Shown here: positions 5,573 through 64,000 of the stretch, piece by piece
Layout of the letters: each line of letters starts with the position of its first letter
Position numbering within the stretch: the first letter of the stretch is position 1
Source of the DNA: Escherichia phage vB_Ec-M-J
Sequence record: OQ718158.1
Strand: one strand, 5' to 3'
Length of the DNA: 64,000 nucleotides
Translations under genes and position numbers: made by a program
The notes under the pieces: model-generated
What the model was told of the DNA's origin: nothing
The model's input: only the letters and a program-made list of their open reading frames with translations
The model's database searches: none

Positions 5573-5730
<158 letters not shown>

Positions 5731-5755
5731 CAAAAAAAAACAATGAGAGGTATAA

Positions 5756-6253
<498 letters not shown>

Positions 6254-6254
6254 T

Positions 6255-6286
<32 letters not shown>

Positions 6287-6330
6287 GATTCCCGATTCAG
6301 TAGTTTTAAAGCAGACCCGTATGTGCCTAT

Positions 6331-6725: not shown

Positions 6726-6726
6726 A

Positions 6727-20296: not shown

Positions 20297-20297
20297 A

Positions 20298-49456: not shown

Positions 49457-49469
49457 TTTTTTCTCCTTA

Positions 49470-50618
49470 TTATATTGATGGCATATCCAACACATATGAG
49501 TTGCTAGTAATTGATGAATATGTAGAATTTAAACCTGTACTATAAACATAATCACCTGCCCATAAGAATGTTCTATCCAATGTTGTATGTATTTCAATAT
49601 CATCATATGATGATAATGATATTTGTGCTAGTGTATATGTAGTAGCATCAATGTTTGAACCAATACCCAAAGTACCATTGTATTGTGATTGGGAGTTTTG
49701 ACCAGTTGCATATATACCAGATTTGGTTATTAAATGCTGATTGTACATTGACGTACCTTTAAACAATTTAATTAAATTAGAGTTAGGTGTAGTTATTGGT
49801 GCAGGAGCAAGTATTGTTGTTGTAGTGCCACCATCACCTAATTGTCCATATCGTTGGTAACCACCAGCGTATACCTGTTTAACTCCAGCCGTAGTTTCAA
49901 TAATAAAGAATGAACCATAGCCAGTAGTATTAAAGTCTATAATTTTATTTGTACTCAAACCAACATTATATCTAGTAAATGTTGTTGCATTTGCTGAACC
50001 ACCAGCATTCCCACCTACCATTTGCCCACTATAATAAAATGCTCCAGTACTGTCAGTATAAGCCATACAGTTCTCACTACCATAGATTTTTACTGGTGTA
50101 CTGGGGAAACTAGAGGTTATATTCACACATGTATTATATTTTGCAGTAGTTCCAGTAATTTCACCATTGTTGTTTTGCCCAATTACCCAAACTGTGTCAT
50201 CCGAACGTATAGCCATTGAGCTATAAAACGAGGATACAAATTGTTTAATAAAGGAACCAGGGAGAGAAGTAAGCATACTATTGATTTGTGCACTCACATT
50301 GGTCCATGTATTCACAACTGAATTGACACCTGCGGCTGCACCTGAACCAGAACTCCACCATGATTCATCATTCTTTTTAATCAATGTACCATTAGCAGAG
50401 CAATAAACATCAGCAACTGAACTATTAACTAATATCCATGCCCTCGCTGCTGTTGTATTACCAGTACCTAGCTGTCCTGCTGCATTACTACCCTTAGCAT
50501 ATAAATCTCCATTCTGCGTTAAAAGCATAGCATGTTGGTATCCAGTTGACAATTTCTTTATTTTTGGTAATGCTGGTGCTTCATTTCCATAATCAAACAT
50601 TCTAACAAAAGGTAACAT
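49470..50618 (-). CDS. MLPF-family beta-propeller protein, paralog 4
   Basis: MLPFVRMFDYGNEAP; AAGQLGTGNTT and YGQLGDGG blades; C-terminal YVLDMPSI. Confidence 0.7.
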   Translation of the reverse strand: MLPFVRMFDYGNEAPALPKIKKLSTGYQHAMLLTQNGDLYAKGSNAAGQLGTGNTTAARAWILVNSSVADVYCSANGTLIKKNDESWWSSGSGAAAGVNSVVNTWTNVSAQINSMLTSLPGSFIKQFVSSFYSSMAIRSDDTVWVIGQNNNGEITGTTAKYNTCVNITSSFPSTPVKIYGSENCMAYTDSTGAFYYSGQMVGGNAGGSANATTFTRYNVGLSTNKIIDFNTTGYGSFFIIETTAGVKQVYAGGYQRYGQLGDGGTTTTILAPAPITTPNSNLIKLFKGTSMYNQHLITKSGIYATGQNSQSQYNGTLGIGSNIDATTYTLAQISLSSYDDIEIHTTLDRTFLWAGDYVYSTGLNSTYSSITSNSYVLDMPSI

Positions 50619-50689: not shown

Positions 50690-51868
50690 TTAAAATTGTG
50701 GTAGTTGGTATTCAGTTAATGTCCATGTACCTGTAACTGTTCCATTCGGGGACATCCCTGTGTAGTATAATTTGCCACCAGCGTATACAAATAATGCATT
50801 GTCATTAGCAGCAACCATCGAAGTTTCTGGATCAAATACTACAGAAATTGGTAATTGTGATTGAACAAATACTGACGCATTGGTAGTTGAATTGTTACCA
50901 AGTTGTCCATAGTTGTTATACCCAGTACTGAAAATACGGCTACCATTTCTATATAATATACCCCTAGTACTTTGTGAATGTAGATCTATAAATTCAAAAT
51001 CGGAAACATTAGTTAATTGCAAATAAGTACTTTGTGGAGTTAGTGCTGTCTTATTCGTATTGGTTGTAACTCCATTACCTAATTGACCGTAAAATTGTGA
51101 TCCTAAACCATATAGCGGATAAGTACCATCTGAATAAAGAACTATACCCAACATCTTATTATGTGAAAGAATATCTATTGGATATTTCCCTGTACCAAAG
51201 TCGTATCTAGTCCAAGACGTTAATGTAGCCGACGCTGCCCCAGTTAACAAAGTACCAGTGGTAGTTGTGCCACATCGCCACGCTGAATTATCATTCTTAA
51301 TTATCCAAGTTGGACTATTAAAAAATGAACTAACCTTTTTAACATTAATATTGACCTGGGTTAATTCTGTAAGCATTGATGAACTTGAACCCAACTCATA
51401 TGTGGAGTTATTACCTATTGCATAAAGAACCCCACTATTTGTTAGTACAAACAAATTACGAACATTAGGATATATCTCTTTAATATCATCAATATTAATA
51501 CCCGAAAAATAAGAAGTACATTCCACAAAGGTAGTACTTTGTACTTCACTCGATGCACCTGTCCAGGTGTTCCATCCTGCATAATAAAATTTATTATCAT
51601 TAGTCTGTACTAAGCTATATGAAGAGTTCCTAGTGCACCAGAAATTTTTCACATTTTGCATTAATCGAACCCATGATGTCTGTGTTGTAGTATTACCCAG
51701 TCCGAAAATACCAGCATTGTTTCCACCGATACCCCACAAATCACCGTTACTATACTGTAGCATCAATGTATTGTTGGTGAACGCTGATGGTGCTTGCATT
51801 TTAATTACATTAGCTGATGGTGCAGGTTTAATATTCCCGTACTTAACCATTCTTGCAAAAGGTAACAT
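50690..51868 (-). CDS. MLPF-family beta-propeller protein, paralog 5
   Basis: MLPFARMVKYGNIKP; YGQLGNG blades; C-terminal EYQLPQF. Confidence 0.7.
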   Translation of the reverse strand: MLPFARMVKYGNIKPAPSANVIKMQAPSAFTNNTLMLQYSNGDLWGIGGNNAGIFGLGNTTTQTSWVRLMQNVKNFWCTRNSSYSLVQTNDNKFYYAGWNTWTGASSEVQSTTFVECTSYFSGINIDDIKEIYPNVRNLFVLTNSGVLYAIGNNSTYELGSSSSMLTELTQVNINVKKVSSFFNSPTWIIKNDNSAWRCGTTTTGTLLTGAASATLTSWTRYDFGTGKYPIDILSHNKMLGIVLYSDGTYPLYGLGSQFYGQLGNGVTTNTNKTALTPQSTYLQLTNVSDFEFIDLHSQSTRGILYRNGSRIFSTGYNNYGQLGNNSTTNASVFVQSQLPISVVFDPETSMVAANDNALFVYAGGKLYYTGMSPNGTVTGTWTLTEYQLPQF

Positions 51869-51943: not shown

Positions 51944-53134
51944 TTATAGTTGTCTTGGAGTATCAAGTACATATCTATTTGTACTAGGACCACCATCATC
52001 ATAAGTTCCGGTTGAATATATATTTTTCATATCAGCAGTTAGGAAAGTACGTAACGACCCTCGATATATTTTTATTTTATCATACATAGAATATGTTATT
52101 TCTGACGGCAATGGACATGCAGTAAATTTACCAATGGTAACATTAGAACCAACACCCAATGAACCAGCATAACTACTCGCATTTAAACCTGTTGCATATA
52201 CACCAGAACTCGTAACTAGTATACTAGATTGTGCTGGGTATCCAGTATGAATTGAATACAAAGTACCGGGTGGTAAGGTTGTACTATTATTTCCTAATAC
52301 TGCTCGTGCTGTACTAGACGTAGTGTTATTACCCCATGCCCCATTATTGGCGTTCCCACCCACTAGGAACTGACGTGCTCCTGTACTTGGATTCTCCACT
52401 AAAGCACTGACTGCACCAATTGTACATACAACATATTGTAATGTTTTTGTATATGTTGTACTTGGCTGATATAAAGTATATTGATTGTATGGAGTCCATG
52501 TATCAGTAGTACTTATACCTGATGTACTACCACCAATATATAAATTATTTTGTGTATCATAAAACATTACACAGCTATTTGTTGACTGTATTCGTGCAAT
52601 ATCAACATTAGGCGTGACAGCTTTTACAAATGATCCATCTGTTATTTGCTGAGTACTACCAGTACCATCAGCGAATTGTCTAGCCCCACTCCAACCAGTA
52701 CTCCATATTGTATTATTATCCATTAAGAAAGTAAACCAAGTAGTACCTGCATACATCTGTTTAATTGAAGTACCTGAACTTTGTGTGTACAAATTTTCAA
52801 TATATTGGTTATAACTTAAAAATGATGTAGTACTAGTTTCTAAACCAATATGACTACCATATCCACAATAAAAATAATTTAAGTCCTTATCTTGAACTAA
52901 CAAAGTTCCTTGTGTCATCCAGCAATCTTTGACATTTTCTCTAATTAATGTCCACGACCTTACTGCATTATTATTTCCGCGACCGAACTTCCCATAACTA
53001 TTATTTCCTCGTGCGTATAGTTGACCGTCAGTATAAAGTACAACCACATCAGTATCAGTTGGTATTATTTTCTTAATTAGAAGAGGTTCAGGTGTGATAT
53101 TCCCATAATCAAACAATCTAACAAAAGGTAACAT
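51944..53134 (-). CDS. MLPF-family beta-propeller protein, paralog 6
   Basis: MLPFVRLFDYGNITP; C-terminal YVLDTPRQL. Confidence 0.7.
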   Translation of the reverse strand: MLPFVRLFDYGNITPEPLLIKKIIPTDTDVVVLYTDGQLYARGNNSYGKFGRGNNNAVRSWTLIRENVKDCWMTQGTLLVQDKDLNYFYCGYGSHIGLETSTTSFLSYNQYIENLYTQSSGTSIKQMYAGTTWFTFLMDNNTIWSTGWSGARQFADGTGSTQQITDGSFVKAVTPNVDIARIQSTNSCVMFYDTQNNLYIGGSTSGISTTDTWTPYNQYTLYQPSTTYTKTLQYVVCTIGAVSALVENPSTGARQFLVGGNANNGAWGNNTTSSTARAVLGNNSTTLPPGTLYSIHTGYPAQSSILVTSSGVYATGLNASSYAGSLGVGSNVTIGKFTACPLPSEITYSMYDKIKIYRGSLRTFLTADMKNIYSTGTYDDGGPSTNRYVLDTPRQL

Positions 53135-53204: not shown

Positions 53205-54347
53205 TCAATAAGCTTCCCACGGTAAGGGTGTCTTCCTAAATCCATACCTGGTTGTGGTCGCACCATCACCAGCAATGTATCGACCGATACCACATTGGTA
53301 TAACTCTGTACTACTACATATAGCACCACCAATAGTACCACTACTCCACAGAATTATATTAGAATATGTTATTGGTAAATCACTACATTTAGTATATACA
53401 CCAACGGTAGCAGTCCCACTAATACCACCAAACATACTTCGGTTAGCACCAGTATAATATATACCATCTGGACTCATAAATGCAGAGGTGTAAGTTGTAC
53501 TACAATCCACTGGACTTCTTATAGTATTAAGATCGCCTGGGTATGTCCTGACACCAAAGGTGTATACATTACCATCAGTTGTAATACCATTACCTAACTG
53601 CCCACTGTTTTGTCCACCACATGTAAGCAACAATGCAGAACCAGAAACAATTGCAGTAGCATTATACGAAGTACCCATCGCAATAGAAGCACCAGACAAT
53701 AGTTTTGGAGTAACAATAGCTGTTGTATTACCCTGGCCTAATTCACCATTGATATTTCGTCCCCATGCGTATATAGAAGTTGTATCCAATCGACATAGTA
53801 CTGAACCATAACTAAACGTATATCGCATGTCAATTACCGCATTAGGCAAATTAACCTTAGTTGCAACACTAATAACACCACCAGTAACACCACTGTTTGC
53901 GTTCATGTTACGACCATATGCATATAAAGAACCATCTGAAGTTTTAATATGCATCATACCATCTGTACAATACAATGCATCTATACTATCCACTGCAACC
54001 GGACCCATACTGGTAGTTATATCGGTCCACCCAAGCGTGGTAGTACTGGAAATTAAGTTATTTCCGGCGTATAGTATTCTATTATTATTAGTAACTACAA
54101 CTGTATATCTGGCAGTAACACCAATTAATCGAACATCAGTATATATCTTAGACCACGCACCTAATGAATTGGTGTTTGCATCCAAAAAGCCCAACTGCCC
54201 ATCTGTATTGTATCCAATACCCCATACATCACCTGCACTGTCCAATAACACTTCATGTGAAAATCCAATCTTAAAATCTTTTATTGTAGGAACTACCGGA
54301 ACTGGTGCAATATTCCCGTACTTAACCATTCTAGCAAAAGGTAACAT
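53205..54347 (-). CDS. MLPF-family beta-propeller protein, paralog 7
   Basis: MLPFARMVKYGNIAP; DGQLGF, GELGQGNTT and SGQLGNG blades. Confidence 0.7.
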   Translation of the reverse strand: MLPFARMVKYGNIAPVPVVPTIKDFKIGFSHEVLLDSAGDVWGIGYNTDGQLGFLDANTNSLGAWSKIYTDVRLIGVTARYTVVVTNNNRILYAGNNLISSTTTLGWTDITTSMGPVAVDSIDALYCTDGMMHIKTSDGSLYAYGRNMNANSGVTGGVISVATKVNLPNAVIDMRYTFSYGSVLCRLDTTSIYAWGRNINGELGQGNTTAIVTPKLLSGASIAMGTSYNATAIVSGSALLLTCGGQNSGQLGNGITTDGNVYTFGVRTYPGDLNTIRSPVDCSTTYTSAFMSPDGIYYTGANRSMFGGISGTATVGVYTKCSDLPITYSNIILWSSGTIGGAICSSTELYQCGIGRYIAGDGATTTRYGFRKTPLPWEAY

Positions 54348-54423: not shown

Positions 54424-55572
54424 TTAACGAGGTATAACTATTTTTTTGAATAATCCAGTATTTCCTGCATTTTCTTCTTCATATGGAATTGTACCCATAC
54501 CAGCAGTTCTGCCACCATTCCCTGAACCATACAGTTCTCCATTCTTAATCATGAATGTTATCATATAACCATGTGTCATTTTATCATATGGAACTGGTTC
54601 AGTTATATTATTACATGCTCGCCATGTACTAATAACACTAGAGTTCGTTATACCATCACCTGATGCGTTTCCTCGACCAGCGAAATACCATATCCCACCT
54701 GCTCTAACGTGTGCTTCATAATTAGAACCACCTATGTAATCAATCGCAGTACTAGGAATACTAGAAGCTGGTATCTTTGTGATTGTTCTAAGACTGTTAA
54801 TAGTGCCATTAGTACCATCACCCAACTGTCCATATATTTGTGAACCGAATACATATAGCCCATCACTCTTTAATACGTAATTAGCACTATATGCATTTTC
54901 TGAATTTACCTGTAATACTCCAGTAGTAACAGTAGTCAATGTGGTGGTAGTTGTACCAGTCGAACCAATACTAGATTTATTCCCACTGTACTTTAATATT
55001 CCATTATTGTATAATACAAATGAAGCATTATCAGCGGTTACACCAATATCTTTAACATCAACTTCTGGTGTCAATGTCAGTACTGATACTCTTTGGTCAA
55101 CAGCCCCAGTAAAAACTTCACCGTTGTTATTGTAACCCATCTTATATAATTTATTATCTATTGTTAATAATAATGTAACGCCGTTTCCTATAACTATTTT
55201 ACTATATGTGTCATTCACATCATCAAAAATACCAAGTATTTCTGTCCATACACGATAAGTAGTATTAACACCACGATAGATTTGAGCACCAGTACTCCAC
55301 CATGTGCCATCATTTTTACGTACTAATATTCCATGTGTATTACCAGTAGTCCAAAATTCCTTTACATCAGTTAAACATAAAACCCACTCTTCAACTATAG
55401 TAGGAGAACTACTACCAGTACCTAATTGATAGTAAAAATTATGCCCTCTGCCATATAATCTTCCGTCTTCTAATAAAATAAACACATTATTCTGTAAAAC
55501 TTTTACCATCTTTATACCAACTGGCACAGGTGCTTCATTCCCATAATCAAACATTCTAACAAAAGGTAACAT
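54424..55572 (-). CDS. MLPF-family beta-propeller protein, paralog 8
   Basis: MLPFVRMFDYGNEAP; YYQLGTG and YGQLGDG blades. Confidence 0.7.
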   Translation of the reverse strand: MLPFVRMFDYGNEAPVPVGIKMVKVLQNNVFILLEDGRLYGRGHNFYYQLGTGSSSPTIVEEWVLCLTDVKEFWTTGNTHGILVRKNDGTWWSTGAQIYRGVNTTYRVWTEILGIFDDVNDTYSKIVIGNGVTLLLTIDNKLYKMGYNNNGEVFTGAVDQRVSVLTLTPEVDVKDIGVTADNASFVLYNNGILKYSGNKSSIGSTGTTTTTLTTVTTGVLQVNSENAYSANYVLKSDGLYVFGSQIYGQLGDGTNGTINSLRTITKIPASSIPSTAIDYIGGSNYEAHVRAGGIWYFAGRGNASGDGITNSSVISTWRACNNITEPVPYDKMTHGYMITFMIKNGELYGSGNGGRTAGMGTIPYEEENAGNTGLFKKIVIPR

Positions 55573-55643: not shown

Positions 55644-56753
55644 TTATTTTGGTAAATCAATTTTAGTAAAGACTGCAACATCCTCGCTTGCCCCTGGGAT
55701 GGCGTAATAAGAACCAGTACTATATACATCTCCGTCTTTTGTTAATATTGAAGTTAAACCATCACTAAAAAGAACATCACTAATCTCACTAACTGAAACA
55801 GGTAATTGTAAATTAGTAGCACTATATATTGCACCAGTTTGAGAATTGTTTAATCCCAAACCACGGTTCGCCCCAACACCCTTCTGATATGTACTAGTAA
55901 TTATAATTTGTGTAGCAGTATTTAATGCAGGTGAATTCGTCATAAACAACGGAGAACTATTAGGCAAAGAACTTACAGGAACTGCACGAAATGTAGTTGT
56001 ATCTGAACTAAGAAAGTTTGGCGTTTGACCACATACGAAATATGATGTACCATTATAGTAATTAAATGCATTACCACCTATAGCTGCATCTATTACTCCA
56101 GTACTACGTAATCCCCACGTGTTAATTTGTGTTCGGTTCCCCGTGCCATGCTGACCCCTGTCATTCCACCCAGAACTATATAACTTATTATCTAATGTAA
56201 TATACATACTGTCATTTGAATTCGTCATTACTTTACGCACATTAGTAGCACATTGAGTTAATGTGTAAATTGATGATGAACCAATACCTAAAGCACCACG
56301 ATATCCATTAGCCCCTGCACCATAGAGTACTGAACTAGTGCTAAGTACAAATATTAAACCATACGAACATACTATATCAGCAATTTCATTTACCGATAGT
56401 ACACTCGTAAACCACGCAGTCCTATCAACTAATACAGTACTGTAAGAAGTCCCAGTAGAAGACGAAAACCAATAAGTCTCACCAGCAGTCCATATAGTAT
56501 TGTCACTCTTAATAACAACAACTGTACGATCACCAGCAAAAAAATTAGTAACTTCTGTACTCACTAATCTCCATGAAGATACAGTGTTGGTATTACCATT
56601 TCCAGATTCACCACCTTGATTTCTACCTATGTAATATAAATCATGTGAATCAGTCAATAAGAATTGACCCTGTGTAGACGCACCAACTTTTATTATATTT
56701 TTAGGACCAGGTGTGATATTCCCATAATCAAACATTCTTACAAAAGGTAACAT
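55644..56753 (-). CDS. MLPF-family beta-propeller protein, paralog 9
   Basis: MLPFVRMFDYGNITP; RGQHGTGNRT blade; C-terminal FTKIDLPK. Confidence 0.7.
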   Translation of the reverse strand: MLPFVRMFDYGNITPGPKNIIKVGASTQGQFLLTDSHDLYYIGRNQGGESGNGNTNTVSSWRLVSTEVTNFFAGDRTVVVIKSDNTIWTAGETYWFSSSTGTSYSTVLVDRTAWFTSVLSVNEIADIVCSYGLIFVLSTSSVLYGAGANGYRGALGIGSSSIYTLTQCATNVRKVMTNSNDSMYITLDNKLYSSGWNDRGQHGTGNRTQINTWGLRSTGVIDAAIGGNAFNYYNGTSYFVCGQTPNFLSSDTTTFRAVPVSSLPNSSPLFMTNSPALNTATQIIITSTYQKGVGANRGLGLNNSQTGAIYSATNLQLPVSVSEISDVLFSDGLTSILTKDGDVYSTGSYYAIPGASEDVAVFTKIDLPK

Positions 56754-56763
56754 ATTTCTCTCC

Positions 56764-57894
56764 TTAATTTAATAATGCCCCTGGCAAATCCACTTTGACG
56801 AATTGTGCATATGCTGAGGAATTTTGATCAAAGTTTGGTCCCAATCCATAAAATGAGCTAATGCCGTCTTCATTTGTGTATATGATATAAACGTTCTTTA
56901 CATCATTTCCGCATATAAATCGAATGTCTTTCGTTTGTGTTCCCGCTGGAACATTACGAAGGTTCACAACGCCATTACTTGCATTGTTATCAGCCGACGC
57001 AATTGGTAATTGATTTTGACCATATTGACCACGCATATTTTTTGCATCTAAACCAAACACAGTATCTGATACCGCACCAACTTTCAAAAATGAACCAAAA
57101 CTATTATTGAATGACTTTGGAAATGTACCACTATAAACACTTCTCCCATCTGATAATACCGCTGAACTGAATTTCCCGCTATTCGATATGGCAAATTCAT
57201 TGTAAGGAAGTGTACCCATTTTGGTATATACAGAATATGAATTAGTGGAAGTATTATCAATAATCTTATTACCATTATATCCAATACCATACTGGTATCC
57301 GTCTGCATCTTGAACTATACACAAAGGACCACTTGGGGTTTGTGTCAACGAAACAACACGTTCAACTTGTATATCACCAAATGTATTTCTTCGCCATGTT
57401 CTATCTATTATAGTACTAGTATTACCCAAAGATAATGCCACACTATATAATAGATTGTTTTCAGTAAAAATGGCAACATAATATGCGTGGTTAATAACTT
57501 GCTTCATCCCAGCATCAATAACTTCCTGTGGAATATGATCAGTAACATCCAACCAATCAAGGTTAGATGATGCAATATCTGGAGTACTGAATTTGTCAAA
57601 TCTAGTTGAGCCACAAACTAGCACTCTATCATCATTTGTCAAAGCCACTGTGCTAGTCTGCATATTAGAACTGAATGATTTAACATTACTAATGTTAGAC
57701 TTGTACCAACCCTTATCAGCAGCACCCACCGTGAATCCGGTTCCCATTGATCCACTTGTACTTGTACCATAAGCCCACATCTCACCACTATATGTTAGTG
57801 CCATACAGTGGCTTCCATTTGCTTGGAAATCCTTTATACCAGTGGGAGCAACCACTGTATTCCCATAATCAAACATTCTAACAAAAGGTAACAT
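56764..57894 (-). CDS. MLPF-family protein, paralog 10
   Basis: MLPFVRMFDYGNTVV; only 10 nt from paralog 9 start; C-terminal FVKVDLPGALLN. Confidence 0.7.
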   Translation of the reverse strand: MLPFVRMFDYGNTVVAPTGIKDFQANGSHCMALTYSGEMWAYGTSTSGSMGTGFTVGAADKGWYKSNISNVKSFSSNMQTSTVALTNDDRVLVCGSTRFDKFSTPDIASSNLDWLDVTDHIPQEVIDAGMKQVINHAYYVAIFTENNLLYSVALSLGNTSTIIDRTWRRNTFGDIQVERVVSLTQTPSGPLCIVQDADGYQYGIGYNGNKIIDNTSTNSYSVYTKMGTLPYNEFAISNSGKFSSAVLSDGRSVYSGTFPKSFNNSFGSFLKVGAVSDTVFGLDAKNMRGQYGQNQLPIASADNNASNGVVNLRNVPAGTQTKDIRFICGNDVKNVYIIYTNEDGISSFYGLGPNFDQNSSAYAQFVKVDLPGALLN

Positions 57895-57971
57895 AACTAA
57901 TTCTCCAAATTCAAATAATTATAATGTATTTACAAAAAAAATACCAGCACATATTTCAGTACTGGTATCAT
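57895..57971 (-). promoter_or_regulatory. array intergenic module (variant box)
   Basis: Hairpin with cagtactg core plus TGTAAATACATTATAAT and GGAG SD. Confidence 0.5.
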
Positions 57972-59153
57972 TTATGGTAAAATGATAGATTGTAACGAAC
58001 TCATACCCAATGCTGGAACACTAGCCTGTGGTGCTGGAGAATTCAATTTTGGTGATGAAACCGCATATGACATTCCTGAACCCAAATCTGGATCAAAAAC
58101 TACAGCACAATAATTCCCACTATATATAAGTCCATTCTTGTATCCTTGTGCACTTTGAATGCATTTCGTGAACGTACCAATATCTGTAGTGGCATTTATT
58201 AAGTTCCTCCCACGATAACCGCAGGTGTATATGAAATTATCATCGCCTATGTACATACTAGAATCCCCAGAAGAACTACATAGATACGACATATAAGCAC
58301 GCATGTTTTTAGGAGCAACTGACAATGTACCTGCATAGAATTTATTATTCGAACCCGTAATATCACCATCACCCAATGCACCAAAACTTCCCCAGCCAGT
58401 ACCATAATATCTCTTATCACTCAAGAATATAATACAGTTGTTATTACACATCTTGACTTGATATATCAATGAAGGATCAACCCCAGGGAATGATTCAGTG
58501 TATGTTAGAACAGCCAGATCAGTACTAGCATTACATTGATGATATGTATTAGTACCAGCGGACAAGATTGTTCCATTAGCTAACAGAATTCTCGCAGTAC
58601 CAGTACCAGCAGTACAAGCAACTGCACTTCCTGCACTTCCGGTGTATATTTGTCTGAAAGTAAAGAAACCAACAGTTTTACTTCCCTGCCCACTCCAACC
58701 AGTATTATCAACTCCACACGCCCATACTGAACCATCTTGCATGATCATCATTACACCAAAGCGTTCTATTGAAATATAAACAATCTTCGTTGTATCAACT
58801 GCACTAAATCTAGAAGTTATATCAGTCCATACCTTAACACTTACCGCCGTCGCACTGGAAGTAGGATCTTCACCAGCTATCATTATCCTCCCATTGTTAG
58901 TAAGATACATTGTCTGACTATAACCAGTACTACAAAACTTAACACTATCAGTCTCTGGAACTTTTAACCACTCGTTGTAACGTGTTACGTTAGTGTTATT
59001 ACCTAACTGATAATAGTTATTCATCCCAGATACATATAACACACCATCCTTTATTAAACTATAAGTCGCACTATAGTCACTACAGGTATAACGTGTACCC
59101 ACAGGTCGCTCAACGACGTTCCCATAATCAAACATTCTAACAAAAGGTAACAT
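57972..59153 (-). CDS. MLPF-family protein, paralog 11
   Basis: MLPFVRMFDYGNVVE; divergent body. Confidence 0.7.
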   Translation of the reverse strand: MLPFVRMFDYGNVVERPVGTRYTCSDYSATYSLIKDGVLYVSGMNNYYQLGNNTNVTRYNEWLKVPETDSVKFCSTGYSQTMYLTNNGRIMIAGEDPTSSATAVSVKVWTDITSRFSAVDTTKIVYISIERFGVMMIMQDGSVWACGVDNTGWSGQGSKTVGFFTFRQIYTGSAGSAVACTAGTGTARILLANGTILSAGTNTYHQCNASTDLAVLTYTESFPGVDPSLIYQVKMCNNNCIIFLSDKRYYGTGWGSFGALGDGDITGSNNKFYAGTLSVAPKNMRAYMSYLCSSSGDSSMYIGDDNFIYTCGYRGRNLINATTDIGTFTKCIQSAQGYKNGLIYSGNYCAVVFDPDLGSGMSYAVSSPKLNSPAPQASVPALGMSSLQSIILP

Positions 59154-59226
59154 AATAAAATCTCCGTAATTAAATTATATAGTATTTACAAAAAATACCA
59201 GTACATATTTCAGTACTGACCTATTA
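59154..59226 (-). promoter_or_regulatory. array intergenic module (variant box)
   Basis: Hairpin plus GTAAATACTATATAAT and GGAGA SD. Confidence 0.5.
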
Positions 59227-60348
59227 TTAAAAGGGCAACGGTAACTCAGTAAAAGTACTTACGTCCGGTAAACCATACATTGAATTAGCATCACCACAGT
59301 AATACCACTTCGTAGAATCATGTACCACCGATAAACGCTGTGCACATAACACTTCCTGTATGTCATTAAACACCATCGGGACTAACTCATATGTATCCGC
59401 AAATGAAGATACACCACCACTCGCATGAAAAGTATTCGTCCCAGCATAAAATAACTGATTAGTGTTCTTACCCACAGCAAATGTCATCAATATCCCATCA
59501 TTCTCCCATAAAGAAGAAAACTTATCAACACTACCAGAAAGCTCTGTGTAAGTACTCGTAATGGCACTCGCAGCCGCCGCATTACCCATCTGTTTATTCA
59601 AGTTCTGTCCAGCAATAAAATATCTCGTGCGTGCACTAGAATCAGTATATAATAACCCAGTGTTCGTAGTCATCATTCCAATGTCCTTAATCGTCATACC
59701 AGTCTGTGAATAACTTAGATACGAAGTTAAACTACCATTATTACCCAACGAACCGTTATCACTCATGCCACAACGATGTAATATACCACTTGTATCAACG
59801 TAGATAGTACTAACTAAACTCGTATACAACTCTTGTACATTATTCGCAATAAACACAGCAGTCGCCTTATTACTAACCCCACCAAATGATAGGTTATTAT
59901 CAAATCCCTTAGCGTATAATTGATTATTAGTAGTCAATAATCCAATCGTGAAATAAGACATTTTCATATCCCTTACTGTACTCAAATCTACTGCCCCAAA
60001 TTGGTGCGTAACATCTGTCCATGTGAAAATCTGTGCACTACCAACACCACCCGTTTCAAACCATTTGTCACCACAGTACAATATGCGATTACCCTTAGTA
60101 AAGATAACTGTTACCAATCCACTACCACACGCAAACTTTACATCACTTCTAACCTTCGTCCAATCAAGTACATAGGTAGTGGTGTTATTACCTATACCTA
60201 ACTTGCCATAACGGTTATAACCACGCACCCACAAATCACCACTCTTAGTAATTAATAGTAATGCGTCTCCTGTACTTATTATTCGAAATCCCGAACTAGG
60301 ATCAGGTACTTCATTTCCATAATCAAACATTCTAACAAAAGGTAACAT
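59227..60348 (-). CDS. MLPF-family protein, paralog 12
   Basis: MLPFVRMFDYGNEVP; C-terminal FTELPLPF. Confidence 0.7.
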   Translation of the reverse strand: MLPFVRMFDYGNEVPDPSSGFRIISTGDALLLITKSGDLWVRGYNRYGKLGIGNNTTTYVLDWTKVRSDVKFACGSGLVTVIFTKGNRILYCGDKWFETGGVGSAQIFTWTDVTHQFGAVDLSTVRDMKMSYFTIGLLTTNNQLYAKGFDNNLSFGGVSNKATAVFIANNVQELYTSLVSTIYVDTSGILHRCGMSDNGSLGNNGSLTSYLSYSQTGMTIKDIGMMTTNTGLLYTDSSARTRYFIAGQNLNKQMGNAAAASAITSTYTELSGSVDKFSSLWENDGILMTFAVGKNTNQLFYAGTNTFHASGGVSSFADTYELVPMVFNDIQEVLCAQRLSVVHDSTKWYYCGDANSMYGLPDVSTFTELPLPF

Positions 60349-60421
60349 ATATCCCTCCTTTATTCATTATACTATATTTAATCAAAAAAGAAATGCCAGT
60401 ACTCAAGTACTGGCATAGTAT
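60349..60421 (-). promoter_or_regulatory. array intergenic module
   Basis: tgccagtactcaagtactggca hairpin plus conserved box. Confidence 0.55.
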
Positions 60422-61549
60422 TCAAAAAGGTAAATCAATTTGCTTAGTAATAATAGTATCTAACGGTATTGAACACAATGAGAAATTCTTTCCACCCGTA
60501 TTTTCAGGATTATATCCATTCATCCATACATTATTACCTTCGTAAAATGTATTCCAGTATAAAGACCCACTATATCGTGTATTCGAATTGAACGATGTAA
60601 AATTGAATTCTTGAAATGCTGTAAAATATGGAAGGGAACTTGAACTACTTCCCGTAAATGGGGTATGCCCAGTTGCTATTAGTTTGTTTGTATCTGCATT
60701 AATTAAAAATACAACACTAGTCGAATAGTCCAACGAATCAGGATGATATATATTACTCATATCACCTATAGTAAAACCAACATCAAAAACTTTACTATGT
60801 GCACCACTACCAGCAAAAGTAGTTCCAGTTGCATATATTTTATTATCAGATGTTATCATTACAAAACCAACACCAGAAACAAAACTGCATTTTATATCAT
60901 AAGATATATCATCAAACAACGGAACAAATGTGGTTGCATCACCCGATGTTGCTTTAACTTGAAAGCTGTTATTTGAACCTGAACCATATACAGTTCCATC
61001 GTTTTTAATCTTAAACAATGTATCGCCAAGGTAACCGCCAAATATATTATCCACATTAGTGTCAAGTACAGTCCACGCTGAAACATAATTTTTATGTCCT
61101 AAACCTAATGTACCACTTCGATTCCATCCTCTTCCATAAAGTGTTCCGTCTTTCATTAATATAAATGCTGTATAACCACATAACATTTTTTTAATTTGGG
61201 TAACATCTATACCAGTGAAATACACAGCCCAGTCAGTATATCCTTGTTGGAAAGTATTAGAATTCGTGAATGCATATGTTGAACCTGAACCATATATTTT
61301 ATCACCTTTAATAACAACGGAAAACGATCCTAACCATAAGTCATCAACTTCAGTTGTGATTTGTTGAACTGCTCCTAACGATACAAACTGTGTACTTAAA
61401 CCCGCATTATAGTTTGAATCTTCACCGTGTGCATATACAGTGCCATCTTGCATTAGAAACATTTCAAGAGTGTAACTAACAACACTTTTCTTTATATTAT
61501 TAACTTCGATTATATTCCCATAATCAAACATTCTAACAAAAGGTAACAT
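60422..61549 (-). CDS. MLPF-family protein, paralog 13
   Basis: MLPFVRMFDYGNIIE; C-terminal KQIDLPF. Confidence 0.7.
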   Translation of the reverse strand: MLPFVRMFDYGNIIEVNNIKKSVVSYTLEMFLMQDGTVYAHGEDSNYNAGLSTQFVSLGAVQQITTEVDDLWLGSFSVVIKGDKIYGSGSTYAFTNSNTFQQGYTDWAVYFTGIDVTQIKKMLCGYTAFILMKDGTLYGRGWNRSGTLGLGHKNYVSAWTVLDTNVDNIFGGYLGDTLFKIKNDGTVYGSGSNNSFQVKATSGDATTFVPLFDDISYDIKCSFVSGVGFVMITSDNKIYATGTTFAGSGAHSKVFDVGFTIGDMSNIYHPDSLDYSTSVVFLINADTNKLIATGHTPFTGSSSSSLPYFTAFQEFNFTSFNSNTRYSGSLYWNTFYEGNNVWMNGYNPENTGGKNFSLCSIPLDTIITKQIDLPF

Positions 61550-61618
61550 AATTCCCTCCTTTATTCATTATACTATATTTAATCAAAAAAAGCCAGTATC
61601 AAGTACTGGCATATTAAT
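61550..61618 (-). promoter_or_regulatory. array intergenic module
   Basis: Hairpin plus conserved box. Confidence 0.55.
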
Positions 61619-62767
61619 TTACTGCAAAAATGACATATCGACTTCTGTATAATTAAGAACGTTCTGTCCAGAAATACCACCCATTACTACTATTGCAAGG
61701 CCACAATAATATAATTTTCCAGTATCAGTAAGTATAAGTGAACCAGATGGGGTGCGTACCAAATTACAAGAGGTATTAAACGAAGTATATGAAGGAGTAT
61801 AGGAGTACTGATTAATATTATTACCAACACCTAATTGACCAGACGCGTTGCTTCCAGATGCATAAAGTACTTCATCACCTTTAACTATATGTGATGCCAT
61901 GTTACCAACACAAGTATATAAACTATAAACACCTGCACTCAATAATGTGGGGGTTTTATATTGTATATCAGTAGAAGAGGAAGTACCACCTGTACCAAAT
62001 TCGTTCCCATATTGTGCACCGAACTGTTTACCACAAGCGTACAAATTATTATCCGATTTGATAAAAAATGTACTCTGATAACTTACATTAAAATCTATAA
62101 CATCCGAAGAAATCATCGTCACCCCAGTAATAGAAGTTTGATTACCCGTGCCCAACTGGTAGTAATAGTTAAAACCACAACCCCATAAAGTATTATCTTC
62201 TCGCAAATAAATGTTACCAACTGCCTTTTTAACCGAAGTTATAGTATCTACTCTTTTGAATGTGTTAAAAGAATTAATGTTTGTGCCATCACCAAATGAT
62301 GATATGTTCGATATATTGTTAGCTCCACAACAATACAATGTACCATCGTTTGTTATCAAATTCACCTTCATATCATAAAAACTACTCATGTATTTTATAT
62401 CAGAAACATTAATACCACTTGATGTTATCCACGTAGTACAGTCCGTCCACAAAGTTTTTCTATCAGTTACACCAGTGAATGCCTTCGTGTTACCAGTGAT
62501 AAAAACTTTTCCAGTACCTTTCTCTTCATACAATTGACAATCACTACTGTTATCTTCCAATAGAACTCGTTTAACATTCTCCGCACAAAGAATAAATTTA
62601 CTCGATGCTACACCTGTACCAGTACCCCAATTCGTCGCAGAAGATGCATACAACTTATCAGTATAAGTATCATGAAGATACATAGAATCACTGGAATATA
62701 TTTTAAAACGCCCAGAGTTGGTAGGTGCTTCATTCCCATAATCAAACATTCTTACAAAAGGTAACAT
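61619..62767 (-). CDS. MLPF-family beta-propeller protein, paralog 14
   Basis: MLPFVRMFDYGNEAP; YYQLGTGNQT and SGQLGVGNN blades. Confidence 0.7.
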   Translation of the reverse strand: MLPFVRMFDYGNEAPTNSGRFKIYSSDSMYLHDTYTDKLYASSATNWGTGTGVASSKFILCAENVKRVLLEDNSSDCQLYEEKGTGKVFITGNTKAFTGVTDRKTLWTDCTTWITSSGINVSDIKYMSSFYDMKVNLITNDGTLYCCGANNISNISSFGDGTNINSFNTFKRVDTITSVKKAVGNIYLREDNTLWGCGFNYYYQLGTGNQTSITGVTMISSDVIDFNVSYQSTFFIKSDNNLYACGKQFGAQYGNEFGTGGTSSSTDIQYKTPTLLSAGVYSLYTCVGNMASHIVKGDEVLYASGSNASGQLGVGNNINQYSYTPSYTSFNTSCNLVRTPSGSLILTDTGKLYYCGLAIVVMGGISGQNVLNYTEVDMSFLQ

Positions 62768-62779
62768 ATTTCCTCCAAA

Positions 62780-63685
62780 TTATTTAAAAACATACTGCGT
62801 ATTAACACGTGTCCCGTTGTCGTAACCAAGTACGTAAAATATTTCAGCACTATTATTAGAGCCAAATAATGCACCAGTACTATTACTCAACGTTGTATTG
62901 ATAGCTAATGGTATCCATTTGTTTTGCTCGGCATCATATTTTAATAAATTTAATGCACCATAAGATACTGCATATATACCTTTGTCATATCTATTGTAAA
63001 TTATCTTACTAGGGTTAGCTCCACCAACTGCTGCCATTCTTGACCAAACCGCACTCTCTATGTGATATTTTTGTGCAGGAGTAGATCCTTGTCCTGTAAA
63101 ATATATGTAAGTACCATCAGTGCACATATCACCACCACCATTGTTTGTTGTATTCCCAGTAGTACCTAACGATGTCCATGTATTAGTACTCGGCGTATAA
63201 CTATATAATGCAGTATTAGACGGTGAACCCCACAAATATATCTTATCCCCTGTAGTAATCATCTTACTATATACTGCCTGGTTAGGTTTGCCAACACTTG
63301 TATTATTCAGTGTCCATGTATCAGAGCTTATGTCATATACATAAAAATTATTATTAGCAACATTCGCTGCACCTAAACCACCGAACAAATATATTTTTCC
63401 TTGATAGGCACACAATGCACTTCCATAGGTGGATACTGGTGGTGATGATAATTGTACCCATATTCTAGAATTTAAATTAAAACTCCATAACTGATTATCC
63501 TGGTTCGAAGTATTCATTATACCACCAAATATATAAGCAGTATTTCTTGATGCATCATACGTATAACCAAAGTTATTTCGTGCTGAAGGTACTGGTGATG
63601 TGGTAAATTGAGTTCGTATACCACCATTTGGGGCTGGTAATGGAGCTTCATTCCCATAATCAAACATTCTAACAAAAGGTAACAT
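62780..63685 (-). CDS. MLPF-family protein with kelch-like repeats, paralog 15
   Basis: Start set at MLPFVRMFDYGNEAP (track ORF extends 30 codons upstream); kelch-like IFGG / IYLFGG / IYLWG units. Confidence 0.65.
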   Translation of the reverse strand: MLPFVRMFDYGNEAPLPAPNGGIRTQFTTSPVPSARNNFGYTYDASRNTAYIFGGIMNTSNQDNQLWSFNLNSRIWVQLSSPPVSTYGSALCAYQGKIYLFGGLGAANVANNNFYVYDISSDTWTLNNTSVGKPNQAVYSKMITTGDKIYLWGSPSNTALYSYTPSTNTWTSLGTTGNTTNNGGGDMCTDGTYIYFTGQGSTPAQKYHIESAVWSRMAAVGGANPSKIIYNRYDKGIYAVSYGALNLLKYDAEQNKWIPLAINTTLSNSTGALFGSNNSAEIFYVLGYDNGTRVNTQYVFK

Positions 63686-63733
63686 ATTTCCTCCTTTATT
63701 CATTATATCATATTTACCCCATAAACAAAACCC
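63686..63733 (-). promoter_or_regulatory. conserved TATAAT/SD box upstream of paralog 15
   Basis: Minus-sense TAAATATGATATAATGAATAAAGGAGGAAAT-ATG. Confidence 0.5.
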
Positions 63734-63762
63734 TTGACATCCTTTCAGTACTGGTGTACTAT
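63734..63762 (+). promoter_or_regulatory. sigma70-like promoter
   Basis: TTGACA-N17-TACTAT with cagtactg in spacer. Confidence 0.5.
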
Positions 63763-63787
63763 AGAAGGAATACAAGGAGAACTACAC

Positions 63788-64000
63788 ATGACAGCTACAC
63801 TTAAGTACTACATTAATACTCTAAATGAACTAGAGTACGGTAAGTTTCTCGCGGATAGTTCGTGGCTAATTGAGCTAAAAACACATAACAGTACTGGATG
63901 TAACCTTATGCTGAACAATGCACTTGATACCCTTGTAGTGAGTATTTTACACAGCACCATCTGCGGGGATAGCAATAAACAATTATCAAAAATCTTAGTA
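63788..64000 (+). CDS. hypothetical protein, 3'-truncated by window end
   Basis: ATG after AAGGAGAA; open to window end. Confidence 0.5.
   Translation, partial: MTATLKYYINTLNELEYGKFLADSSWLIELKTHNSTGCNLMLNNALDTLVVSILHSTICGDSNKQLSKILV

What the first reader, a model, noticed from the sequence alone, without database searches (positions are those of the whole stretch)
62780..63685. Same N-terminal module fused to a kelch-like rather than RCC1-like propeller
Paralog 15 keeps MLPFVRMFDYGNEAP but its body shows kelch-like units (IFGG..W, IYLFGG..Y..W..L, IYLWG..Y..W) instead of GQLGxG blades. The conserved N-terminal peptide and promoter therefore behave as a portable module attached to different propeller types, which argues for a targeting or assembly function rather than family-specific fold conservation.
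Basis: partly seen in the sequence, partly recalled or inferred. Interest (0 to 1): 0.7.

Follow-up and report, generated by a model that had tools for sequence, protein, structure and literature searches.

The report
Portable virion tag on phage propellers
A giant E. coli phage has 15 tandem genes that start with the same 12-15-residue peptide but encode unrelated folds (one Kelch, fourteen RCC1-like propellers); in related giant phages this peptide marks proteins found in the virus particle, so it is most likely an address label for mounting interchangeable binding domains on the virion.

Summary
The ORF at 62780-63685 (minus strand, 301 aa) begins MLPFVRMFDYGNEAP and is a six-bladed Kelch propeller. 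The 14 neighbouring paralogs carry the same start on seven-bladed RCC1-like propellers. No similarity remains after residue 15.

The window is an Asteriusvirus jumbo coliphage, closest to BF17. AlphaFold leaves the peptide unstructured and outside both propellers.

The peptide travels with a late-type promoter and ribosome-binding site as a cassette border:
- Orthologous bodies that are 96-99% identical carry different tag variants in phAPEC6/121Q.
- The Kelch body is a 935-bp insertion or deletion bounded by two tag copies.

The motif M-L-P-F-x-x-hydrophobic-x-x-Y-G/A-N heads at least nine body types across 350-378-kb Rak2-like phages. These include RCC1, Kelch, RCC1-Kelch fusions, laminin-G lectin and a glycine-rich domain.

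Published virion proteomes detect 8 of 11 tagged proteins in phAPEC6 and 9 of 11 in CBB (Fisher p = 2e-6 and 2e-8).

The best reading is a virion-docking tag on interchangeable binding modules. Whether they sit outside the particle (my lean) or inside the head, like T4 capsid-targeting-sequence (CTS) proteins, is unresolved. I found no published description of the tag. I rate it a new variant of a known kind.

The parts
62780..63685 (-). Paralog 15: tagged Kelch-propeller gene (301 aa, stop included)
   Evidence: ORF and translation. Pfam Kelch families are above cut-off. AF2 model has pLDDT 88.4 with 24 strands, i.e. six four-stranded blades. Foldseek top hits are Kelch domains. It is 99% identical to a BF17 hypothetical protein.
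63641..63685 (-). N-terminal tag of paralog 15, codons 1-15 (MLPFVRMFDYGNEAP)
   Evidence: Identical 15/15 to paralog 14. Residues 1-20 have pLDDT about 47-52 and the first strand starts at residue 24. DNA similarity to the other paralogs ends at about +36 to +50.
63686..63716 (-). 5' cassette border: TAAATA (63711-63716), TATAAT (63702-63707), GGAGG (63690-63694)
   Evidence: Read from the sequence. It aligns with the upstream regions of 9 of the other 11 paralogs aligned; paralogs 10 and 11 share only TAAATA and TATAAT, and paralog 14 has neither. The same TAAATA-N3/4-TATAAT layout lies upstream of phAPEC6 structural genes gp231c and gp244, and TATAAATA upstream of the capsid, scaffold and other structural genes. 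Promoter function is inferred.
62786..63616 (-). Kelch propeller body (residues 24-300)
   Evidence: AF2 secondary structure. PF24681 matches residues 28-197. TM 0.75 to the NS1-BP Kelch domain 5yy8.
62715..63649 (-). 935-bp cassette (Kelch body + RBS + next tag) present here and in BF17 but absent from phAPEC6/121Q
   Evidence: Global alignment: window 64000..63650 matches phAPEC6 5643..5993 (90%) and window 62714..62400 matches 6011..6325 (98%). 121Q-type phages cover the region in two pieces only.
61619..62767 (-). Paralog 14: tagged RCC1-like propeller, 12 nt downstream of the Kelch gene, RBS only (co-transcribed)
   Evidence: AF2 pLDDT 74.3 with residues 1-17 below 50. Foldseek hits UVR8, HERC2 and RCC1. 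Its body is 96% identical to phAPEC6 gp549 while the tag is swapped.
60422..61549 (-). Paralog 13, tagged RCC1-like
59227..60348 (-). Paralog 12, tagged RCC1-like
57972..59153 (-). Paralog 11, tagged RCC1-like
56764..57894 (-). Paralog 10, tagged RCC1-like
55644..56753 (-). Paralog 9, tagged RCC1-like (RBS only, follows paralog 10 by 10 nt)
54424..55572 (-). Paralog 8, tagged RCC1-like
53205..54347 (-). Paralog 7, tagged RCC1-like (MVKYGN tag variant)
51944..53134 (-). Paralog 6, tagged RCC1-like
50690..51868 (-). Paralog 5, tagged RCC1-like (MVKYGN variant)
49470..50618 (-). Paralog 4, tagged RCC1-like
48296..49456 (-). Paralog 3, tagged RCC1-like (RBS only)
47092..48225 (-). Paralog 2, tagged RCC1-like (MVKYGN variant)
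45206..46330 (-). Paralog 1, tagged RCC1-like (MLPFVLLFDYGN)
61592..61610 (-). Intergenic hairpin + T-run (GCCAGTACTTGATACTGGC TTTTTTT), terminator-like; one of the repeated cassette separators
   Evidence: Terminator scan found 6 against 2.1 expected. The hairpin is conserved in the alignment of upstream regions.
60393..60416 (-). Intergenic terminator-like hairpin after paralog 13
59197..59220 (-). Intergenic terminator-like hairpin after paralog 12

Best explanation
The first 12-15 residues (consensus M-L-P-F-x-[R/I/Q]-hydrophobic-x-x-Y-[G/A]-N) are a virion-docking tag. It is a short, intrinsically unstructured N-terminal peptide that attaches whatever domain follows it to one common site in the particle. 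Each cassette is built as late-type promoter, RBS, tag, body, terminator. The bodies are interchangeable beta-rich binding modules (here Kelch and RCC1-like propellers). They have very few charged residues and are rich in S/T/N/G. I think they most likely sit on the outside of the virion, on the capsid or tail surface or on the 'hairs' seen on these phages, and act as auxiliary adhesins. The conserved tag and border DNA also provides the homology that lets cassettes be inserted, deleted and converted, so the repertoire turns over quickly. Shown: the shared tag on unrelated folds, the breakpoints, the wide distribution of the tag, and its statistical association with virion proteomes of related phages. 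Inferred: that the tag itself causes incorporation (about 0.7 overall), that the promoter is late, and that the location is external (about 0.4, against about 0.3 for internal).
For: Fold independence. Kelch versus RCC1 is supported by Pfam, profile-profile comparison, AF2 and Foldseek. Only residues 1-15 are shared. The tag is unstructured in both models. RCC1 bodies are only 21-26% identical to each other, while M1, L2, P3, F4, Y10, G11 and N12 are invariant.

Portability. The tag heads RCC1, Kelch, RCC1-Kelch fusions (667-676 aa), Laminin_G_3, Gly_rich_2 and at least four unknown families. This holds in CBB, 121Q, a 349-kb ENA contig and several 354-371-kb IMG/VR contigs.

Virion association. 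In phAPEC6, 8 of 11 tagged proteins are in the virion proteome against 54 of 540 others (p 2e-6). In CBB, 9 of 11 against 46 of 543 (p 2e-8), including all six CBB-specific structural proteins, one of which (CBB_144) lies among ribonucleotide-reductase genes. GAP32 gp001 is reported as structural. The JP4 proteome lists three tagged proteins.

Protein-level selection. Synonymous codons vary at every conserved tag position across and within genomes.

Cassette recombination. Bodies that are 96-99% identical carry different tags in the window and in phAPEC6/121Q, with the junction near +57. The Kelch body is an indel bounded by two tags. Neighbouring Kelch and RCC1 genes in L003 share a private variant, MFPISIISQYGN. 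About a quarter of the cassettes differ even from BF17.

External lean. Paralogs have 12.6% charged residues against 23.3% in other ORFs of the window, and 40% S/T/N/G against 23% (p 9e-7 and 4e-9). Kelch shares this composition with the RCC1 bodies. pI is near neutral, not basic. The bodies are lectin or adhesin-type domains. These phages carry unassigned capsid and tail fibres. No conserved protease site follows the tag.

Late-type promoter layout.
Against: Nothing has been measured for this phage or for this Kelch protein. The two CBB Kelch proteins closest in position (CBB_550 and CBB_554) were not detected by mass spectrometry. phAPEC6 detections rest on only 1-5 peptides, so co-purification of abundant late proteins is not excluded. 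No docking partner has been identified. A 12-residue anchor is much shorter than known receptor-binding-protein anchors. AlphaFold disorder is not proof of a free peptide. The T4 precedent, the T4-like head genes and the inner body seen in 121Q/phAPEC6 favour an internal location instead. Part of the DNA identity within the genome is explained by gene conversion alone.
Confidence: 0.4

Rival explanations
1. The tag is a capsid-targeting sequence of the T4 type. It directs the proteins into the scaffolding core of the prohead. They end up inside the head (perhaps in the inner body) and are ejected with the DNA. The diversified propellers would then act as tight-binding inhibitors of host defence proteins.
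For: [quoted passage not shown] The format is the same here: a tag starting at Met1 on unrelated bodies in a variable locus. The phage has a T4-type capsid protein, prohead protease/scaffold and portal. 121Q and phAPEC6 show an inner body of unknown composition, and the phAPEC6 authors proposed the RCC1-like proteins as candidates. Virion association is supported. Cassette turnover looks like an arms race.
Against: There is no resemblance to the T4 CTS. No conserved (L/I)-x-E or other Glu cleavage site follows the tag: many tags continue ..YGNIAP....YGNITP.. or ..YGNTVV... The bodies are 30-75 kDa beta-propellers or beta-sandwiches that would have to unfold to pass through the tail. Their charge is low (12.6% charged residues, near-neutral pI), unlike DNA-embedded internal proteins. 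Peptide counts are low for a supposed inner-body constituent.
Confidence: 0.3
2. The tag serves another protein-level purpose unrelated to docking in the particle. Examples are recognition by a phage chaperone or assembly factor, a stability or degradation signal, or export. Virion detection of the proteins would then have other causes.
For: Amino-acid conservation with synonymous variation shows selection on the peptide but does not say for what. Two to three of 11 tagged proteins in each phage were not detected in virions.
Against: It does not explain a 24-49-fold enrichment in virion proteomes across different body folds and genomic neighbourhoods, for example CBB_144 among nucleotide-metabolism genes. 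The peptide has no signal-peptide or lipobox features (sequence).
Confidence: 0.15
3. The peptide has no function. The conserved 5' segment is a regulatory and recombination element (promoter, RBS, translation-initiation region) that is homogenised by gene conversion, and the first codons are carried along.
For: Within this genome the first 36 nt are almost identical, with 0-2 mismatches in 11 of the 15 starts (the three MVKYGN-variant starts and paralog 1 are absent from that <=3-mismatch list), and are contiguous with the conserved promoter/RBS. Tags are demonstrably exchanged between genes. Tag variants are genome-specific: MFDYGN here, MVKYGN in phAPEC6/121Q, LFDYGN in L006.
Against: Across genera the upstream DNA differs and synonymous codons vary (Pro CCT/CCA/CCG/CCC; Gly GGG/GGA/GGT/GGC; Tyr TAT/TAC), yet M, L, P, F, Y, G/A and N are retained. 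The tag is kept on genes that lack the promoter (paralogs 3, 9 and 14; CBB genes separated by 0-10 nt). It does not explain the virion enrichment.
Confidence: 0.12
4. The peptide is a structural 'velcro' strand that closes the propeller ring, conserved because both propeller types need one.
For: Many Kelch and RCC1 propellers close the ring with a terminal strand (general knowledge).
Against: AF2 places residues 1-20 (Kelch) and 1-17 (RCC1) outside the fold with pLDDT <52, and the propellers are complete without them: 24 strands from residue 24 onward. The same peptide also heads non-propeller folds such as Laminin_G_3 and Gly_rich_2.
Confidence: 0.03

Closest known systems
T4 capsid targeting sequence (CTS) on internal proteins IPI/IPII/IPIII and Alt
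   Same: A roughly 10-residue peptide starting at Met1 is shared by otherwise unrelated, rapidly diversifying proteins and is sufficient to load them into the virion (PMC3012670). The host phage lineage has T4-type head genes.
   Different: There is no sequence resemblance and no conserved Glu cleavage site after the tag. The bodies are large, low-charge beta-propeller or lectin folds rather than small charged proteins. Internal location and sufficiency are untested here.
Conserved N-terminal anchor modules of phage receptor-binding proteins and tailspikes, with swapped C-terminal binding domains (general knowledge)
   Same: A conserved N-terminus attaches to the particle, and variable binding domains are exchanged by recombination at the module border. 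The gene set varies between close relatives.
   Different: Known anchors are folded domains of tens to more than 100 residues on trimeric fibres. Here the anchor is 12-15 residues predicted to be disordered, on folds that are normally monomeric.
Capsid decoration proteins that bind through a short terminal arm or small domain and display an outward module (lambda gpD, T5 pb10, T4 Hoc; general knowledge and PMC10766600 abstract)
   Same: A small binding element plus an exposed module, giving a possible multivalent adhesin layer on the capsid.
   Different: Those systems have one decoration protein per phage, not 11-16 alternatives sharing one tag. Binding to the capsid is not shown here.
RCC1-like 'DNA condensation' proteins of GAP32/121Q/PBECO4/phAPEC6 and Kelch-like proteins of CBB (PMC5259590, PMC7247149)
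   Same: These are the same gene families. The multi-copy arrays and virion detection are already reported. A4 and Turkey5 annotate the Kelch orthologue.
   Different: Those papers treat RCC1 and Kelch proteins separately and do not mention the shared N-terminal peptide, its presence on other folds, or cassette recombination. The 'DNA condensation' label is a name transfer that composition does not support.
Paralogous head and inner-body protein families with N-terminal propeptides in phiKZ/SPN3US-type giant phages (cited; PMC7411985 abstract)
   Same: Giant phages carry several paralogous low-copy virion proteins whose N-termini are involved in head assembly.
   Different: Those propeptides are cleaved at defined sites and the paralogs share a fold. 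Here the folds differ and no cleavage motif is conserved.

Membership tests
Kelch-repeat beta-propeller (paralog 15) | Significant match to Kelch profile HMMs above the curated threshold | tested here: met
   PF24681 scores 94.1 bits (cut-off 50). Kelch_1 49.9 (20.1), Kelch_3 63.8 (22), Kelch_4 59.8 (21.6), Kelch_6 60.0 (25.3).
Kelch-repeat beta-propeller (paralog 15) | Six four-stranded blades forming a closed propeller | tested here: met
   The AF2 model (pLDDT 88.4, pTM 0.87) has 24 strands between residues 24 and 300. This is a prediction, not a solved structure.
Kelch-repeat beta-propeller (paralog 15) | Structural similarity to solved Kelch domains rather than other propellers | tested here: met
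   All top 50 Foldseek PDB hits are Kelch-type propellers (NS1-BP, KLHL12/17/20, LZTR1, KEAP1, designed Kelch proteins), TM up to 0.77.
RCC1-like domain (does paralog 15 belong with the other 14?) | Match to RCC1 repeat profiles, or profile-level homology to the RCC1 paralogs | tested here: not met
   Paralog 15 has no RCC1 family hit at E<=1. hhalign of the Kelch alignment against the alignment of the 14 paralogs gives probability 3%. BLASTP finds only residues 1-15.
RCC1-like domain (paralogs 1-14) | RCC1 repeat profiles above threshold and a seven-bladed fold | tested here: met
   PF13540 and/or PF00415 are above cut-off in 12 of the 14. The paralogs at 59227-60348 and 51944-53134 are significant only against PF25390 (E 5e-15 and 3e-16). 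PF25390 has E 1e-8 to 1e-26 throughout but stays below its 150-bit cut-off. The paralog 14 model matches UVR8, HERC2 RLDs, RPGR and RCC1 at TM 0.6-0.73.
Eukaryotic RCC1 function (Ran exchange factor / chromatin binding, the basis of the 'DNA condensation protein' label) | Basic chromatin- or DNA-binding surface, or a Ran partner | tested here: not met
   pI is 4.8-8.6, net charge -11 to +3, and only 12.6% of residues are charged. Bacteria have no Ran (general knowledge). The label is a name transfer.
T4-type capsid targeting sequence proteins | Short N-terminal peptide shared by otherwise unrelated proteins | tested here: met
T4-type capsid targeting sequence proteins | Proteins are present in the virion | tested here: met
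   This rests on published proteomes of relatives, not on this phage: phAPEC6 8/11, CBB 9/11, JP4 >=3, GAP32 gp001.
T4-type capsid targeting sequence proteins | Prohead-protease cleavage site (L/I-x-E) at the end of the targeting peptide | tested here: not met
   A Glu follows the tag in only some members (..YGNE|AP..GNIIE|V). Many have none within 20 residues (..YGNIAPVPVVP....YGNITPGPKN..).
T4-type capsid targeting sequence proteins | Location inside the head and ejection with the DNA; the tag is sufficient to package foreign cargo | not testable with these tools
   Requires fractionation, protease-protection or bubblegram experiments, and tag-reporter fusions.
Receptor-binding-protein N-terminal anchor modules | Conserved N-terminus with exchangeable C-terminal binding domains, and a recombination junction at the border | tested here: met
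Receptor-binding-protein N-terminal anchor modules | The anchor is a folded domain on a trimeric fibre or spike | tested here: not met
   The anchor is 12-15 residues predicted to be disordered, and the bodies are single propellers or beta-sandwiches. Oligomeric state was not tested.

The most novel reading that the evidence does not exclude
The 12-residue MLPF...YGN peptide is a self-sufficient, transferable address label of the whole Rak2-like jumbo-phage clade. Any domain placed behind it is mounted on, or loaded into, the virion at a common site. The tandem array is then a recombination-driven cassette system, with the tag and promoter acting as the cassette junction. Through it these phages assemble and reshuffle a repertoire of a dozen or more virion-borne binding modules (adhesins or pre-loaded anti-defence binders). 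This would be a phage counterpart of the T4 CTS, but serving many more and far larger cargo types.
Probability: 0.4. Interest if true: 0.8.

Novelty: new variant of a known kind. Interest (0 to 1): 0.62.

Why it matters
If the tag really directs incorporation, it explains several things at once. It explains why a dozen or more 'regulator of chromosome condensation', Kelch, lectin-like and unknown proteins turn up in the virions of giant enterobacterial phages. It corrects a misleading annotation ('DNA condensation protein', filed under DNA metabolism). It identifies candidate components of the unexplained hairs or inner body of 121Q-type phages. It would also give phage engineers a 12-residue handle for displaying or packaging cargo in 350-kb phages, as the T4 CTS does for T4. 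Finally, the tag-bounded cassette exchanges show how jumbo-phage genomes gain and lose virion accessory genes, and they give a sequence rule (start = MLPF..YGN) for finding such genes in metagenomes.

Tried and rejected
- Velcro-strand idea: rejected, because AF2 leaves the tag outside both propellers and the tag also sits on non-propeller folds.
- T4-like cleavage site after the tag: looked for and not conserved.
- Canonical sigma-70 promoters: the scan is not enriched (21 found against 26.7 expected) and does not call the cassette promoters. I therefore compared them with upstream regions of phAPEC6 structural genes instead.
A 42-aa alignment found nothing because the word index returned only 15 candidates, so this says nothing about distribution. 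The degenerate DNA pattern scan of IMG/VR was used instead.
- Pattern hits outside the 350-378-kb contigs (a major head protein in 39-72-kb contigs, a baseplate hub, short ORFs) are about as many as chance predicts by my rough estimate of about 14. I do not claim them.
- Literature. 'MLPF' + phage returned nothing relevant. The jumbo-phage comparative genomics paper, the JP4, Sharanji and phiKp24 papers, and the 121Q capsid paper say nothing about the tag or the location of these proteins. Two literature calls failed on term syntax. The phAPEC6 supplementary files are not held.
- The JP4 supplementary table gives protein-level identifications only, so retention or cleavage of the tag could not be read from peptides.
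- Direct Kelch-RCC1 homology: BLAST single linkage appeared to join them, but the links run only through RCC1-Kelch fusion proteins.
Full report
**What is at the coordinates.** The minus strand carries an ORF from the ATG at 63685 to the stop at 62780. It is 301 aa, has a GGAGG 5 nt upstream, and starts MLPFVRMFDYGNEAP. The mechanical ORF list extends it to a TTG at 63775, but the closest relative annotates exactly the 906-nt gene. It is the first, most upstream member of 15 tandem minus-strand genes (45206-63685) that all begin MLPF[VA][RL][ML][FV][DK]YGN. The 32-nt start occurs 11 times with <=3 mismatches, against none in 100 shuffles. The window is an Asteriusvirus (121Q/PBECO4/phAPEC6-type) jumbo coliphage, 98.4% identical to phage BF17 over 62600-64000.

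**Two different folds behind one peptide.**
- Pfam puts paralog 15 in Kelch (PF24681, 94 bits, E 1e-26, with five classical Kelch models above threshold) and gives no RCC1 hit.
- All 14 others hit RCC1 families and never Kelch.
- BLASTP between paralogs 15 and 14 finds only residues 1-15 (15/15 identical, E 4e-8). A profile-profile comparison of the Kelch and RCC1 alignments gives 3% probability.
- AlphaFold2 predicts a six-bladed propeller for paralog 15 (pLDDT 88, 24 strands). Its best PDB matches are all Kelch-type propellers (TM up to 0.77).
- It predicts a seven-bladed propeller for paralog 14 (pLDDT 74), matching UVR8, HERC2, RPGR and RCC1 (TM up to 0.73).

**The peptide is not part of either fold.** In both models the first 17-20 residues have pLDDT below about 50 and make no strand. 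The Kelch propeller starts at residue 24. Among the 14 RCC1 paralogs the bodies are only 21-26% identical, yet M1, L2, P3, F4, Y10, G11 and N12 are invariant.

**Anatomy of the repeated unit.** Twelve of the 15 genes are separate units. Each has a palindromic hairpin plus T-run left by the previous gene, then TAAATA-N3/4-TATAAT, GGAGG, and the tag. Paralogs 3, 9 and 14 follow the preceding gene by 10-13 nt with only an RBS. For the Kelch gene, identity to the other paralogs is 92% over nt +5..+34, 47% over +35..+49, and background (25-34%) beyond. Upstream it shares the TAAATA..TATAAT..AAAGGAGG stretch.

The promoters are not canonical sigma-70 sites. In phAPEC6 the capsid, scaffold and several tail genes are preceded by the T4-type late motif TATAAATA. 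Two structural genes, gp231c and gp244, have the same TAAATA-N4-TATAAT layout as the array. Late expression is therefore inferred, not shown.

**Recombination at the tag.** Three results show that the tag region is where cassettes are joined.
1. Orthologous bodies carry different tags. Window paralog 14 and phAPEC6 gp549 are about 99% identical in DNA from +57 onward (96% in protein), but read VRMFDYGNEAPTNSG against ARMIKYGNIAPGDDG before that. Paralog 9 and its 121Q orthologue behave the same way.
2. In phAPEC6 the orthologue of paralog 14 sits directly behind the promoter region that drives the Kelch gene here. A global alignment leaves 62715-63649 (935 bp: Kelch body, RBS and next tag) as an indel whose ends lie inside the two tag copies (also the two-piece matches).
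3. Tag variants are genome-specific. Most genes here and in BF17 have MFDYGN, all genes in phAPEC6/121Q have MVKYGN, and five adjacent genes of a metagenomic relative have LFDYGN. In a distant 349-kb phage a Kelch gene and the adjacent RCC1 gene share a private variant, MFPISIISQYGN.

Even against BF17, four window cassettes have no orthologue, and BF17 has four or five that the window lacks.

**The tag is much wider than Kelch versus RCC1.**
- In Pectobacterium phage CBB eleven genes start MLPF[SPAT]x-hydrophobic-xx-Y-[GA]-N. They comprise three Kelch, Laminin_G_3 lectin-like proteins, and several families without a Pfam match.
- In the 349-kb ENA contig the tag also heads a Gly_rich_2 protein, a 165-aa unknown and a second Kelch. 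121Q and BF17 have a glycine-rich-type member inside the array.
- A degenerate DNA pattern for the tag gave 65 matches in IMG/VR. Of these, 51 lay on nine contigs of 348-378 kb. The rest were scattered singletons, about as many as chance predicts.
- Clustering the bodies gave nine groups. One group includes 667-676-aa proteins with tag, RCC1 propeller and Kelch propeller in a single chain.
- Across these genomes the conserved codons use different synonymous triplets (Pro CCT/CCA/CCG/CCC, Gly GGG/GGA/GGT/GGC, Tyr TAT/TAC). Selection therefore acts on the peptide, not only on the DNA.

**Link to the virus particle.** Published mass spectrometry of purified virions gives the following.
- phAPEC6: 62 of 551 proteins were detected. 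Eight of the eleven tagged RCC1-like proteins are among them (gp003, 005, 006, 007, 009, 010, 549, 551). Odds ratio 24, Fisher p 2e-6.
- CBB: 55 of 554 proteins were detected. Nine of eleven tagged proteins are among them (CBB_144, 247, 536, 537, 548, 549, 551, 552, 553), p 2e-8. All six structural proteins the authors singled out as absent from GAP32 carry the tag. One of them lies among ribonucleotide-reductase genes.
- GAP32 gp001 (RCC1-like) is reported as structural.
- The JP4 virion dataset lists three tagged proteins.
- Other virion proteins, such as the capsid, scaffold, portal and the untagged structural genes in this window, lack the tag. The tag thus marks a subset.

**How it most likely works.** The simplest account is that the tag is a docking peptide for one common site in the particle. 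The body is an exchangeable binding module, and the conserved tag/promoter DNA doubles as the recombination junction. I put about 0.7 on the tag causing virion incorporation. Where the proteins sit is open.

I lean to the outside (about 0.4) for these reasons:
- The bodies are lectin or adhesin-type beta folds.
- Kelch and RCC1 bodies share a striking composition: 12.6% charged residues against 23.3% in other ORFs of the window, 40% S/T/N/G against 23%, and near-neutral pI. To my knowledge this is typical of phage fibre and surface proteins and unlike DNA-embedded internal proteins.
- No protease site follows the tag.
- These phages carry unassigned fibres on head and tail.

The main rival (about 0.3) is a T4-style capsid targeting sequence that loads the proteins into the head for ejection. 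It is supported by the close formal analogy, the T4-type head genes and the inner body of 121Q/phAPEC6. A purely regulatory or recombinational explanation (about 0.12) fails to explain the cross-genus amino-acid conservation and the virion enrichment. A velcro strand (about 0.03) is contradicted by the models and by the non-propeller bodies.

**Comparison with what is known, and novelty.** The RCC1-like arrays, the CBB Kelch proteins and their detection in virions are published. Some relatives annotate the Kelch orthologue. I found no mention of the shared N-terminal peptide, of its presence on many folds, or of tag-bounded cassette exchange. That search covers only the open-access library. 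The concept of a short N-terminal targeting peptide on diverse cargo is known from T4. Conserved N-terminal anchors with swapped binding domains are known from receptor-binding proteins. I therefore class this as a new variant of a known kind. The 'DNA condensation / regulator of chromosome condensation' label, filed by PHROGs under DNA metabolism, is a name transfer with no support in composition.

**Limits.**
- Nothing here is experimental for this phage.
- The phAPEC6 detections rest on few peptides.
- The two CBB Kelch proteins most similar in position were not detected.
- No partner protein is identified.
- The AlphaFold models are predictions.
- The IMG/VR pattern required the conserved residues, so it cannot measure how often they vary. 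The unbiased sets (window array, CBB cluster, ENA contig) show some members that keep MLPFP but lose YGN.

Noticed in passing
L025:6413-8416, L020:140-2161, L041:1903-3933 (IMG/VR contigs of 355-371 kb): These are single 667-676-aa proteins with the MLPF tag, an RCC1-like propeller (about residues 29-270) and a Kelch propeller (about residues 400-560) in one chain. The two propeller types that are separate adjacent genes in the window also exist as a fusion.
   Followed up: partly
L003:18183-19457: The called gene starts with one tag (MLPFPRMVQYAN..) and has a second in-frame tag (MLPFCILITYAN..) 41 codons later, before the RCC1 body. It looks like a recombination scar or a mis-called start.
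   Followed up: no
window 46408-47058 (+): A 216-aa ORF on the opposite strand sits inside the array between paralogs 1 and 2. It is conserved in BF17 and phAPEC6 (gp011c), has no Pfam match, and hits phrog_34359 of unknown function. Whether it relates to the array, for example as a partner or chaperone, is unknown.
   Followed up: partly
window 3423-6842 (+): A cluster of five tRNA genes: Ser-tga, Ser-gct, Met-cat, Asn-gtt, Thr-tgt.
   Followed up: no
window 12300-13457 (-), 11440-12255 (+), 32115-33626 (+): Three ORFs match PHROG 'virion structural protein' families (phrog_10468, 14991, 20398) but do not carry the MLPF tag. The tag therefore marks only a subset of virion proteins. The first is a lone minus-strand gene among plus-strand small ORFs.
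   Followed up: partly
window 18232-19200 (+), 20208-21092 (+), 40707-41822 (+): An RNA polymerase sigma-factor-like ORF (phrog_351) and two HNH/homing endonuclease ORFs lie among long runs of small plus-strand ORFs of unknown function.
   Followed up: no
window array intergenic regions, e.g. 61592-61610, 60393-60416: The cassette separators are near-perfect palindromes, GCCAGTACT-N3-AGTACTGGC, followed by a T-run. Upstream of the Kelch gene only the left arm (CCAGTACTG, about 63740-63748) survives. This fits the Kelch gene being the first unit of the array.
   Followed up: partly
window paralogs versus BF17 (L007) and phAPEC6 (L008, L044): Array content differs even between phages about 98% identical. 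Window paralogs 3, 5, 12 and 13 have no BF17 orthologue (best 25-31%), and BF17 has four or five cassettes missing here, including a 245-aa glycine-rich-type member.
   Followed up: yes
L013:8262-9320, L018:893-2539 (IMG/VR contigs of 20-72 kb): Outside the jumbo clade, the loose tag pattern also hit the start of a major head protein (MLPFTPLDGYGN.., four related contigs) and a baseplate hub-like protein (MLPFYSVKDYAN..). This is probably chance given the expected background, although both are structural proteins.
   Followed up: partly
PHROGs and GenBank annotation of the paralogs: RCC1-like paralogs are labelled 'regulator of chromosome condensation' or 'DNA condensation protein' and filed under DNA, RNA and nucleotide metabolism (phrog_4219). 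Individual copies are also labelled 'S-layer protein', 'Ig domain-containing protein' or 'E3 ubiquitin-protein ligase HERC1'. These are name transfers from the fold.
   Followed up: partly
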